From the NCBI GenBank assembly GCA_964202905.1, contig CAXNJO010000005.1, positions 341,609 through 405,608 on the forward strand: a DNA stretch of 64,000 nucleotides. Direction: 5' to 3'. How positions within the stretch are numbered: the first letter of the stretch is position 1; each line of letters begins with the position of its first letter. Below the pieces are notes generated by a model that was not told the DNA's origin, made no database searches, and worked only from the letters and a program-made list of their open reading frames with translations. The DNA comes from Polyangiales bacterium. Its GTDB lineage: Bacteria; Myxococcota_A; Polyangia; Polyangiales; JADJQN01. The translations under genes and the position numbers were made by a program. This document shows, piece after piece, positions 42,595 through 48,779 of this stretch.

Positions 42595-45500
42595 TCACGG
42601 CGTCTCGACGCAGCCCTGCAGCCTGCGCACCTGCTCCTCGGGCAGGGCGCCCGCCATGATGTGGAACTCGACGCGGCGGTTGCTCTGCCGGCCGCGCGCT
42701 GTGCGGTTCGACTCGGTCGGGTGCACCTCGCCGCAGCCCCACGACTCGAGGCGTTCACGCGCGATGCCGTGCCCGACGAGCCAGCCCACGACGGTCGCCG
42801 CGCGGCGCCGCGAGAGCTCCAGGTTGGTCGCGTCGCGGCCACGGTCGTCCGTGTGGCCTTCGATGCGGAGTCGCTCGAGGTTCGGGTTGGCCGCGAGCAC
42901 GCCGCGCACCTCCTCGAGCACGGGGAGGCTCGGCGCGAGCAGCACGTCGCCGTTCGTCTCGAACTCCACGCGCTGCAGGATGACGATCAGCCCGCTCTCG
43001 CGGTCGACGCGGATCGTCACGGGGCAGCCCTGCGCAGTGCGCGGCCCCGGGTCGAGCGGGCAGCGATCGTCGCCGTCGAGCAGGCCGTCGCCGTCGTTGT
43101 CGGGGTCGGGCACGCCGTCCTCGTCGAGGAATCCATCGCGATCCTCGGGCTCGTTGGGCGCGCCGTCGCGGAGGTCGGGGACGCCGTCCGCGTCGTTGTC
43201 CGGGTCGGGCACGCCGTCCTCGTCCTCGAAGCCGTCGCGGTCCTCGGGGTCGTTGGGCGCGCCGTCACGCGTGTCCGGCACCTGGTCTTCGTCGTTGTCC
43301 GGGTCGGGGCAGCCGTCCTCGTCGGCGAAGCCGTCCATGTCCTCCGCGTCGGTCGGGCACGCGTCGGCCGGATCGGGGAGGCCGTCGTCGTCGGAGTCGC
43401 GCGGCGCGGCGGCCACGGGCGCTGCCGCGGGCGCGGGCTCGGCGCAGGGCTCGGTCGTCACGCCGGCCTGGAAGACGCCGCGCACGTCGGGCGCGCCGTA
43501 GCCGCGCGTGATCCCGGTGCCCCCGGCGAGCCCGAGCACGAGCGCGCAGAGCGGGCGCCCGCGCACGCCGAACAGCACCTCGAAGGGCGTATTTCCGCGG
43601 GAAAACGCGTCATCGAAGCCCGTCACGCCGTACATCTCGCCGAGCACCTCGAGGCGCCGCGGGATGAGCGCGACCGTGAGACCCGCGCCGCCCGTGAGCT
43701 CGCTGCCCACCGAGAGGCCCTGCAGGTCCGTGTCGCGCCGCACGCGCGCGCCGACGTTCAGCGCGAGCCGCACGCGCTCGCCGAAGCGCAGCTCCCCCAT
43801 CAGCCGGGGCAGCAGCACGACGGCGCGATCCCCGACGTACGCCTGCCCCGACCGCGCCGCCTCGGCGAGCGGCAGCGAGAGCCCGACCTGCACGCCGAGC
43901 GCGAGCAGGTCCCCCGCGTCGCCGAGCAGCCGCATGCGGCCACCGACCACCGGGTCGCCGGGCGTCACCGCGCTCGTCCCCGGCACCGCGGCGAACCGAT
44001 CGCCGTCCATCCAGAGCGAGACCGGGAGCTGCCCGTACACCGCGAAGCGCTCACCGAGCCCGAGCGAGACGCCGAGGGTGCCGACGAGCTGGTGCTCGAC
44101 GATCGACGCGCGCTCGCTGTCGGGGTCACCCGCCCGCCCCTCGACCACGAGCGGGTCGTTCGCGTAGGCGACGAGGAGCTGCGCGCCGAGCGCGAGATGC
44201 CCCGGCGTCGTGGGCCGCGAGACCGCGAGGCCGTCCCCGACGAGCTCGGTCGCGCGGAGCTGGTCGAGCGCGAACCCGCCCGCCTGCGCCGCCGCGCCCG
44301 CCGGGGCTCCGACCGCGACGGCCGCGCACAGCACCGCGCCCGCCGCGCGCCGACGGCCACGGCGCAGCACGAGACCGAAGAGCGCCGCGAGGCCGAGGAG
44401 CGCGAGCCCACCGCGGCCCGTGCCCGCGCCCGGCACCGTGCAGCCGCACGCCCCGCCGACGAGCGCGATGTCGCTGCGCGACGGGATCTCGGCGTCCGCG
44501 CTGCCGTCCGCGAGCGCGCCATCCGGCCCGCCCCCGTCGACCGCGCCATCGTCGATGGCGCCATCCGTGATGCCACCATCCATGATGGCACCATCCATGA
44601 GACCACCGTCGGACACGCTGCCGTCCGCGAGGCCGCCGTCCACGATCCCGCCACCGGCCGGGTCGAGGTAGTTGGGGACGTCGTCGCCGTCCGAGTCGCC
44701 GACGCCCTCGACCGCATCGGGGATGCCGTCGCCGTCGGAGTCGGTGTCGAGCCAGTTGAGGCGGCCGTCGTCGTCGACGTCGTTCCCGAAGCGCAGGCCG
44801 TCCGCGCGCTCGCGGGCCGTGGGGATGCCGTCGCCGTCGTCGTCCGCGTCCAGGTAGTCGGGCAGGCCGTCGCCGTCCGTGTCGACGTCGATGTCGCCCG
44901 GGCGCTCGGTGAGCGTGGGGATGCCGTCGCCGTCGTCGTCGCCGTCGAGGTGATCGGGCACGCCGTCGAGGTCGGTGTCCTGCGTGAGGCCGCCGGGCGC
45001 CTCGGTCGCGGTGGGCACGCCGTCGCCGTCGTCGTCCGCGTCCAGATAGTCGGGCAGGCCGTCGCCGTCCGTGTCGACGTCCACGCCCTCGGGCCGCTCG
45101 TCGGCCGTGAGCAGGCCGTCGCCGTCGTCGTCCGGGTCGTCGATGTCGGGCGTGCCGTCGCCGTCGCTGTCGGGGCACGGGATCGCGTCGGGCGGGCACT
45201 CGACGACGTCGGGCACGCCGTCGCCGTCGCGGTCACCGAGCGTCGTGTCGACGATGAAGGTCGTGTCGTCGCTCGCCGTGTTGCCGACGAGGTCCGTCGC
45301 CGTCGCGACGACGTCGTGCAGCCCCGCGATGAGCGGCGTGGTGAGCGTCACGCTGAAGCGCGCGCCCGGGCCCGCCGCGACCGCGCCGACCACCACTCCG
45401 TCGACGCGCACGACGACCGTCAGGCGTCGACCTCGGCGCGGCCGCCGATGGTCGGCAGGTTCGTCACGATCGTGCTGCCATCCCGTGGGATGGTGATGGT

Positions 45501-48500: not shown

Positions 48501-48779
48501 GTCCGCGTCGATGCGCGCCATGACGTAGTCGTTGTTGCGGCGCGCGGGGCCGATGCCGGCGCGCGCGTTCTCGCACGTGACGCGGCCGGAGCTCCCGCCG
48601 CTGCACGTCATCAGGGAGTTCGCGGCGACCGTGACGTCGCCGCGCTGCGTGATCTGGAACCTACGCTGCGCGTCGCGGGCCTGCGCCTCGGCGTGCGGGG
48701 GCCGCATCACGGAGGCGAGGAGGGTGAAGGCGCCGAAGAGCGCGAACGGGACGATCCGAGGGACGGACGTGGTGCGCAT
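42595..48779 (-). CDS. Giant surface protein (~2060 aa): DUF3344-like and DUF11 domains, myxo Cys repeat, 7 Ig-like repeats, Ca-binding DxDxDG repeats, internal MYXO-CTERM, beta-barrel, TSP3 repeats, OmpA_C; split by a one-base frameshift at ~45420
   Basis: SSSADLALP..WAGLYW; EYVISATN..LTDVLP; CGDG..CD.G..GDGC..C; repeated IxxPxDG units; GGACGC-TM-RRGRRR; IEGHTDDRG...NLELSRRRA...NRRVEF. The seventh Ig repeat continues across ORFs 45420..48809 and 42595..45411. Confidence 0.85.

What the first reader, a model, noticed from the sequence alone, without database searches (positions are those of the whole stretch)
42595..48779. Candidate bacterial polyprotein: adhesin with internal MYXO-CTERM joined by a second signal peptide to a TraB-like OM barrel/OmpA protein
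Seen: within one stop-free frame (44284-44472) the adhesin part ends in ...LVGGACGCTVPGAGTGRGGLALLGLAALFGLVLRRGRRR. This runs straight into AAGAVLCAAVAVGAPAGAAA-Q, then a beta-barrel, TSP3 repeats and a complete OmpA_C domain. Established: MYXO-CTERM (Cys, TM, Arg tail) is normally a C-terminal sorting tag, as in M. xanthus TraA. TraA's partner TraB (barrel + TSP3 + OmpA) is encoded by a separate gene, and the pair mediates kin recognition and outer-membrane exchange. Inference: the Arg tail doubles as the n-region of an internal Sec signal with an AxA signal-peptidase site. One translation product would then yield a lipid-anchored surface adhesin and its barrel partner in 1:1 ratio, forming a TraAB-like adhesion module with a DUF3344/DUF11/Ig passenger. 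Similar Ig-OmpA fusions may already be annotated in myxobacteria; I cannot check this.
Basis: partly seen in the sequence, partly recalled or inferred. Interest (0 to 1): 0.85.

Follow-up and report, generated by a model that had tools for sequence, protein, structure and literature searches.

The report
Adhesin and anchor in one precursor
One myxobacterial gene joins a predicted surface adhesin to a predicted outer-membrane, cell-wall-binding anchor through an end-of-protein sorting tag followed directly by a second export signal, so the chain is likely cut into two partner proteins; this gene layout was already noted in print in 2025, and the cutting is untested.

Summary
The junction is real: MYXO-CTERM (TIGR03901 20.2 bits, cut-off 20), Arg cluster, second hydrophobic stretch, AxA|Q, then a predicted 12-stranded barrel and OmpA. 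115 of 122 long homologues keep the full junction; 0 of 32 fused loci have a start codon with a ribosome-binding site there, against 23 of 35 stand-alone barrels. Fused and split forms alternate on the barrel tree. The genome has myxosortase MrtC, signal peptidase I and GspD, plus six ORFs joining a CTERM-type tag to a lipobox. Best reading: a precursor cut twice into a lipid-anchored adhesin and a barrel anchor. The layout is in print for M. xanthus MXAN_5598 (PMC11980579); the passages read do not mention a second signal. This scan found the same design before in other genomes. It is not TraA/TraB. Cleavage is untested.

The parts
48684..48779 (-). First, N-terminal Sec-type signal peptide (residues 1-32), ending A-x-A before Gln
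   Evidence: Sequence; coordinates; same signal-like N-termini in P0001-P0005. SignalP not available.
47700..48683 (-). Head domain of about 330 aa, DUF3344-like; putative binding tip
   Evidence: PF11824 weak, below cut-off; atlas top hit 'Cell surface protein' score 0.96; 199 relatives at E<=0.001, named ones include Solirubrobacterales, Thermus, Nocardioides, Deinococcus
47310..47687 (-). DUF11 / TIGR01451 domain
   Evidence: PF01345 and TIGR01451 above cut-off
47115..47210 (-). Myxobacterial Cys-rich repeat
   Evidence: TIGR02232 34.3 bits, cut-off 20.8
45235..47117 (-). Stalk of about seven Ig-like repeats; the last is interrupted by the assembly frameshift
   Evidence: Big_13, Big_6 and NF033510, 6 stretches each in the N part; a further partial Big_13 in the C part; 7 NF033510 stretches in P0001
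45420..45422 (-). 2-base insertion giving a premature TGA in this assembly; probably an assembly error
   Evidence: Absent in contigs of X2, X3 and X6, X7; P0001/P0002 continuous
44659..45234 (-). Asp-rich DxDxDG (TSP3_bac-like, likely Ca-binding) repeats
   Evidence: Sequence; PF18884 weak, E 0.042
44458..44658 (-). Low-complexity Asp/Gly linker of variable length
   Evidence: Sequence; a 15-base in-frame insertion in the X1 contig
44347..44457 (-). Internal MYXO-CTERM: Gly-Gly-x-Cys motif, TM1, Arg cluster
   Evidence: TIGR03901 20.2 bits, cut-off 20; Gly and Cys invariant in a 30-sequence alignment
44287..44364 (-). Second, internal Sec-type signal: Arg cluster as n-region, h-region, A-x-A cleavage motif
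   Evidence: AxA[QEDA] in 101 of 122 homologues, shuffles 33.5 +/- 4.4; the -1 Ala is invariant in a 30-sequence alignment; the segment outscores TM1 in 119 of 122 on a profile of stand-alone barrel signals
43456..44286 (-). Predicted 12-stranded outer-membrane beta-barrel (FapF / COG4313-like) with a structured N-terminal segment
   Evidence: AlphaFold model; Foldseek FapF 5o68 E 3.5e-10, 4rl8 target-TM 0.72; PF13557 weak
43021..43401 (-). TSP3-like Asp-rich periplasmic repeats
   Evidence: Partly within the NF033763 match (residues 731-920); Foldseek best hit is the periplasmic part of Capnocytophaga OmpA, 5wtl; no Pfam hit alone
42595..42975 (-). OmpA_C peptidoglycan-binding domain, short tail and stop codon
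   Evidence: PF00691 50.4 bits, cut-off 27.2, model positions 2-98 of 98

Best explanation
The gene encodes one precursor of about 2060 aa that is likely cut twice at the inner membrane, giving a predicted lipid-anchored surface adhesin and a separate predicted outer-membrane barrel/OmpA anchor that would work as a pair. Steps: (1) The first signal sends the adhesin through Sec (inferred). (2) TM1 of the internal MYXO-CTERM stops transfer and leaves the Arg cluster in the cytoplasm (established topology of the tag). (3) The Arg cluster plus the second hydrophobic stretch restart export of the barrel half, forming a helical hairpin (inferred; needed by topology). (4) Signal peptidase I cuts at AxA|Q, at 44287/44286, freeing the barrel for outer-membrane assembly, with OmpA binding peptidoglycan (inferred, about 0.9). 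(5) The Cys is lipidated, MrtC cuts the tag and the T2SS puts the adhesin on the surface (by analogy with the model for TraA; about 0.8). (6) The adhesin docks on the barrel, as proposed for TraA/TraB, for attachment to cells or surfaces (inferred, about 0.6; not tested).
For: Junction conserved: 115 of 122 long homologues show Gly..Cys, TM1, at least 2 basic residues, a second h-region and a small-x-A/G site; 0 of 35 stand-alone barrel genes have TM1. AxA[QEDA] 101 of 122 (shuffles 33.5, max 46), close to stand-alone signals at 26 of 35 and at a similar distance from strand 1 (median 5 vs 4 residues). On a profile of stand-alone barrel signals the internal segment beats TM1 in 119 of 122 and its own shuffle in 117 of 122. 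No internal restart signal: 0 of 32 vs 23 of 35. Fused and split forms alternate on the barrel tree: 11 changes, 6 forced by starred branches. A sister pair in this genome is split with a stop/start overlap and GGAGG. 8 of 15 unfused barrels in wide loci sit next to a CTERM-ending gene. Machinery present: MrtC 242.5 bits vs cut-off 195, signal peptidase I, GspD. TraA and TraB were measured at 1:1 (PMC12045341 passages). MXAN_5598 was found in M. xanthus vesicle proteomics.
Against: No cleavage product, lipidation or complex has been observed. The window's tag passes TIGR03901 only marginally, and 16 of 32 fused junctions pass a MYXO-CTERM cut-off (24 of 32 give any hit). The 122 homologues came from searches whose queries included the junction, so they are biased towards it; the 32 fused loci were picked by eye from the top 150 rows. 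Kin are not independent, so p-values overstate. 12 of 35 stand-alone genes also lack a detectable Shine-Dalgarno motif, and 15 of 32 fused loci have an ATG in the 25 codons scanned, so restart without such a motif is not excluded. The profile includes a few mature residues, so it partly measures homology. The hairpin helices have low pLDDT, about 50-65. The gene is frameshifted in this assembly.
Confidence: 0.7

Rival explanations
1. One cut only: signal peptidase I frees the barrel, but the adhesin keeps its two-helix tail and is not processed by myxosortase.
For: An extra helix after the Arg tail is atypical for myxosortase substrates. TraA surface display is only partly lost without MrtX (PMC11980579 Discussion). 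The HMM score is marginal.
Against: Gly and Cys of the tag are invariant across 30 diverse fused proteins, and Gly..Cys precedes TM1 in 122 of 122. MrtC is present. The paper cites internal sorting tags as functional (its references 45 and 46 were seen only as listings).
Confidence: 0.12
2. Two proteins from one frame by an internal translation start: the barrel is made from a restart near the Arg cluster, and the read-through product is incidental.
For: The window has a GTG just before the Arg cluster; 28 of 32 fused loci have some ATG/GTG/TTG in the 25 codons before the h-region. Split pairs with stop/start overlap exist.
Against: 0 of 32 fused loci have a start with a Shine-Dalgarno motif, against 23 of 35 stand-alone genes; 4 of 32 have no start codon at all in that window; the window's GTG has no such motif. 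Without a stop codon the adhesin would still need proteolysis to be released.
Confidence: 0.07
3. Uncleaved single chain, either autotransporter-like (the barrel exports its own N-terminal passenger) or envelope-spanning with the hairpin left in the inner membrane.
For: A passenger before a 12-stranded barrel recalls autotransporters; Foldseek matches the amyloid secretion barrel FapF best among barrels, and EstA weakly.
Against: A stop-transfer helix and an Arg cluster lie between passenger and barrel in 119 and 122 of 122 homologues. Only about 30 mostly structured residues separate the AxA site from the first long strand, too short to span the periplasm (general knowledge). The -1 Ala is invariant. 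Many relatives work as separate genes.
Confidence: 0.06
4. A true TraAB kin-recognition and outer-membrane-exchange system in fused form.
For: Same combined architecture as TraA+TraB; the barrel half matches NF033763 at E 5e-64.
Against: 216 bits against a cut-off of 700. No TraA match in the genome, although that search had no positive control. The passenger is Ig/DUF11, with no PA14 Pfam hit. Passengers vary widely among homologues.
Confidence: 0.05

Closest known systems
MXAN_5598 of Myxococcus xanthus (Guo, Haft, Wall 2025, PMC11980579; read: introduction part, Discussion part 1, search passages, last part of the reference list, supplement part 1)
   Same: Large adhesin region, internal MYXO-CTERM, OM beta-barrel and OmpA in one ORF; the authors propose gene fusion and that the N-terminal part is processed and anchored at the surface.
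   Different: The passages read do not mention a second signal peptide, a signal-peptidase cut or the phylum-wide spread. MXAN_5598 lies by ftsA/ftsZ; this gene lies between dnaK and an IgGFc-binding-domain gene, and ftsZ is on another contig. The MXAN_5598 sequence itself was not obtained. Myxococcus proteins that pass the AgmC model (P0118, P0120) have the same junction; equating them with MXAN_5598 is inference.
TraA/TraB of M. xanthus (PMC3325183, PMC6372800, PMC12045341; passages read)
   Same: CTERM-tagged surface protein plus barrel/TSP3/OmpA partner; genes overlap translationally; 1:1 complex measured.
   Different: Two genes; TraA has a PA14-like head and Cys-rich repeats; the function is kin recognition and membrane exchange. 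Here one gene, an Ig/DUF11 passenger, below the TraB cut-off, and no TraA found.
AgmC family (NCBIfam NF047640)
   Same: Myxococcus members end in the same CTERM-signal-barrel-OmpA module.
   Different: No AgmC_N match in this genome at E<=1e-30; different head domain; the barrels lie apart on the tree.
midcut-by-XrtH proteins (NCBIfam NF033207)
   Same: A family named for a mid-protein cut by a sorting enzyme; weak matches to several junctions.
   Different: All matches far below cut-off (at most 17 bits vs 45); exosortase, not myxosortase; no paper found on it.
Bradyrhizobium FbcH cytochrome b-c1 precursor (recalled, not retrieved)
   Same: Recalled as a bacterial precursor split at an internal signal sequence.
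   Different: Inner-membrane respiratory proteins, one cut, no sorting tag. A search found no paper in the library.

Membership tests
MYXO-CTERM sorting tag | Cys-containing motif, TM helix, Arg-rich tail (TIGR03901 above cut-off) | tested here: met
   20.2 bits vs cut-off 20, marginal; Gly and Cys invariant in alignment
MYXO-CTERM sorting tag | Position at the C-terminus | tested here: not met
   About 580 residues follow the tag; internal cases are called rare in PMC11980579
MYXO-CTERM sorting tag | Myxosortase and T2SS in the genome | tested here: met
   MrtC NF040594 242.5 vs 195 bits; GspD TIGR02517 above cut-off
MYXO-CTERM sorting tag | Lipidation and cleavage of the tag | not testable with these tools
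   Needs protein chemistry
MXAN_5598-type internal-CTERM fusion | Adhesin, internal MYXO-CTERM, OM barrel and OmpA in one ORF | tested here: met
   one ORF once the 2-base insertion is set aside
MXAN_5598-type internal-CTERM fusion | Location next to ftsA/ftsZ (orthology) | tested here: not met
   Neighbours are dnaK and an IgGFc-binding gene; ftsZ is on contig C2; no FtsZ match in the other fetched loci
Sec/SPase I signal peptide (internal) | Basic n-region, h-region, A-x-A at -3/-1 | tested here: met
   Sequence; 101 of 122 homologues vs 33.5 in shuffles; profile test. SignalP itself not available.
Sec/SPase I signal peptide (internal) | Actual cleavage | not testable with these tools
   Needs N-terminomics or tagged blots
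TraB (NF033763) | Score above the curated cut-off | tested here: not met
   216 vs 700 bits
TraB (NF033763) | Barrel + TSP3-like repeats + OmpA architecture | tested here: met
TraA (NF033759) | PA14-like head, Cys-rich stalk, model match | tested here: not met
   No PA14 or TraA hit on the passenger; no genome match, but that search had no positive control
TraAB system | Kin recognition / outer-membrane exchange activity | not testable with these tools
   Needs cell assays
AgmC (NF047640) | AgmC N-terminal domain | tested here: not met
   No match in G000 at E<=1e-30; none on the N part

The most novel reading that the evidence does not exclude
Myxobacteria use a general polyprotein cassette, a CTERM tag whose Arg tail doubles as the start of a second export signal, to make paired envelope proteins in fixed ratio from one chain. 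It has been gained or lost repeatedly at stop/start overlaps. This genome uses it at least seven times (once with a signal peptidase I site before a barrel, six times with a lipobox), and the TraB-like barrel family is a general dock for many different CTERM adhesins.
Probability: 0.55. Interest if true: 0.7.

Novelty: new member of a known kind. Interest (0 to 1): 0.5.

Why it matters
If the double cut is shown, it is a bacterial secretory polyprotein processed by two different membrane proteases. It would answer a question the 2025 paper left open: how a barrel placed after a stop-transfer tag gets out of the cytoplasm. It would also imply that TraA/TraB is one case of a wide adhesin-plus-barrel design. 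It is cheap to test in M. xanthus, where MXAN_5598 is detected in vesicles and a myxosortase mutant exists.

Tried and rejected
Assembly artefact at the junction: rejected (X1 contig; homologues). Real split at 45420: rejected as the population state. Internal restart: not supported. A first feature script often took TM1 for the second helix and gave 66 of 122 with all features and 1 of 32 vs 24 of 35 for start plus Shine-Dalgarno; it was redone with better anchoring and those numbers supersede it. The window's own segment was in the wrong frame; one search is the valid one. Linking AgmC to MXAN_5598 by ftsA/ftsZ neighbours failed: no close Myxococcus genome turned up among the 401 sampled, and no ftsZ/ftsA match lay in the fetched loci. 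Whether the two halves bind each other was not tested; no complex model was obtained. The careful tree did not finish; the quick tree was used. RNA run X1 holds contigs over most of the gene while its same-sample DNA run holds almost none of the words: a weak hint of expression only. Literature searches without a relevant hit: polyprotein + internal signal + signal peptidase + bacteri (nearly all viral or eukaryotic), midcut/XrtH, agmC + Myxococcus, fbcH, internal signal + Myxococc + OmpA + signal peptide, polyprotein + myxobacter and three more terms. The Haft preprint has no occurrence of 'internal', 'fusion' or 'polyprotein'. Sah et al. 2020 was not searched for by id or read, and PMC5350275 is not held. 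Table S1 of PMC11980579 is a picture and was not readable; it may mark a second signal in MXAN_5598.
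Full report
OBSERVATION. The gene is on the minus strand. The junction reads GGACGC (44440-44457), a hydrophobic helix (44365-44406), RRGRRR (44347-44364), a second hydrophobic stretch ending in A-x-A (44287-44346) and then Gln at 44284-44286, all in one stop-free frame, 42595-45807. 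TIGR03901 passes narrowly (20.2 bits, cut-off 20). Two extra bases sit at about 45421. Contigs of runs X2, X3, X6 and X7, the four seen to span the site among eight runs laid, all lack them, and P0001/P0002 align end to end with both parts at about 81-82% identity. Another barrel gene of this assembly also looks frameshifted (C1 near 180.8 kb). I take the break as an assembly error. One X1 contig spans the junction itself with no frame change.

ANATOMY. Signal peptide; a DUF3344-like head shared with surface proteins of distant bacteria; DUF11; one Cys-rich repeat; about seven Ig repeats; Asp-rich repeats; a linker; the tag; the second signal; the barrel; Asp-rich repeats; OmpA. An AlphaFold model of the last 631 residues (mean pLDDT 80) shows two helices of low confidence, 12 long strands and an OmpA fold. 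Foldseek's best matches are the periplasmic part of Capnocytophaga OmpA and the FapF and COG4313 barrels. The nearest named relatives are from Sandaracinaceae.

CONSERVATION. I examined 122 long proteins: the 120 best of 896 hits plus two more. 115 of 122 have all five features: Gly..Cys, TM1, at least two basic residues, a second h-region and a small-x-A/G site. None of 35 stand-alone barrel genes has TM1. AxA followed by Q/E/D/A occurs in 101 of 122 (500 shuffles: mean 33.5, max 46) and in 26 of 35 stand-alone signals, at a similar distance from the first barrel strand (median 5 vs 4). A profile built on the stand-alone signals scores the internal segment at a median 15.3 bits, against 5.3 for TM1 and 5.0 for shuffles. 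Caveats: the queries contained the junction, so the set is biased, and the profile includes a few mature residues. From the top 150 rows of a search of 301 genomes plus one named contig, I picked 32 fused ORFs by eye. They come from 28 genomes: 27 in 13 family codes, plus the Sandaracinaceae contig. This is a floor, since 380 matches were not listed. Of the 32, 16 pass a MYXO-CTERM cut-off and 24 give any hit. Passengers differ widely while the junction and barrel persist.

RESTART TEST. In the 25 codons before the second h-region, a start codon with GGAG/GAGG/AGGA upstream occurs in 0 of 32 fused loci and 23 of 35 stand-alone genes; with 15 codons, 0 of 32 and 16 of 35. Four fused loci have no start codon there at all, but 15 have an ATG. 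The window's GTG at 44370 has no such motif. Kin are not independent, and starts without a Shine-Dalgarno motif exist, so this lowers the rival without excluding it.

EVOLUTION AND PARTNERSHIP. On a quick ML tree of 95 barrels (55 fused, 40 not), the label changes at least 11 times, 6 of them forced by starred branches. The window's barrel groups, on a starred branch, with two unfused barrels of the same genome. At C3 near 372.6 kb a CTERM gene ends in TGA overlapping the ATG of the barrel gene, with GGAGG upstream; one indel there would give the window's layout. traA and traB also overlap translationally. At C1 near 72 kb and 181 kb the barrel gene is followed by a CTERM gene. In wider loci, 8 of 15 unfused barrels are next to a CTERM-ending ORF; in a separate test, 6 of 35 have one ending just upstream. 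Direction (fusion or fission) is not resolved.

MACHINERY. MrtC, signal peptidase I and GspD pass their cut-offs. TraA was not found, in a search with no positive control. Prompted by earlier notes, a scan of the genome found six more ORFs in which a CTERM-type tag runs into a second hydrophobic stretch ending in a lipobox-like Gly-Cys.

MECHANISM. Shown: the sequence layout, its conservation, the lack of a restart signal, the presence of the enzymes. Inferred: Sec export, stop-transfer at TM1, re-export from the second signal, signal peptidase I cut at AxA|Q, lipidation and MrtC cut of the tag, T2SS display (model), and docking on the barrel (by analogy with the 1:1 TraAB complex). Overall confidence 0.7. 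Rivals: one cut only (0.12), internal restart (0.07), uncleaved chain (0.06), true TraAB (0.05).

PRIOR KNOWLEDGE. Guo, Haft and Wall 2025 (PMC11980579) describe this layout for MXAN_5598, liken it to TraA+TraB and propose that the N-terminal part is processed and anchored. In the parts I read (introduction part, Discussion part 1, search passages, last part of the references, supplement part 1) no second signal is mentioned; Table S1 is a picture I could not see. MXAN_5598 is listed in vesicle proteomics (PMC4158809, one passage). Myxococcus AgmC proteins carry the same junction; that they are MXAN_5598 is inference, also made in earlier unchecked notes. Searches, read as listings, showed no paper on the second signal; most subscription journals are not covered. 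This scan reported the same design in other genomes: 10 findings in at least 9 genomes held my search words. These are not independent evidence.

VERDICT. A real, conserved feature and a new member of a kind noted once in print. The second signal, the breadth and the repeated fusion/fission appear to be unpublished extensions. Cleavage is untested but easy to test. Interest 0.5.

Noticed in passing
G000 C1:260368-268515(+), C4:69731-78517(-), C5:309633-316673(-), C6:126355-130614(+), C6:352983-357986(+), C2 near 762953(-): Six more ORFs in this genome where a CTERM-type tag runs into a second hydrophobic stretch ending in a lipobox-like Gly-Cys; some were noted earlier by this scan.
   Followed up: partly
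G000 C3:370874-374632 (L092:4875-8632, -): Split sister pair: a Cys-rich CTERM gene whose TGA overlaps the ATG of a barrel/OmpA gene, with GGAGG upstream.
   Followed up: partly
G000 C1:69219-73094 (L093) and C1:175495-182288: Barrel/OmpA gene followed by a CTERM gene with Dictyostelium-type Cys repeats (PF00526, below cut-off), the reverse order of traAB; the second barrel looks frameshifted in the assembly.
   Followed up: partly
window 40796-42505 (-): Directly downstream, same strand: a gene with a lipoprotein-like signal and an IgGFc-binding domain (PF17517 207.9 bits); a possible further surface protein.
   Followed up: no
window 48895-48970: Short tandem repeat of three copies of about 20 bases between the gene's start and dnaK.
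   Followed up: no
L047 (G046:C41) and L040: Two fused genes in tandem, and a third copy on another contig of the same genome.
   Followed up: no
P0053, P0090, P0030, P0037: In P0053 and P0090 the barrel starts near residue 1200 of about 2350, so long extra C-terminal sequence follows; P0030 and P0037 have atypical junctions or long branches.
   Followed up: no
window 36930-40061 (-): A 1043-aa ORF with no Pfam or NCBIfam match; may be an off-frame ORF.
   Followed up: no
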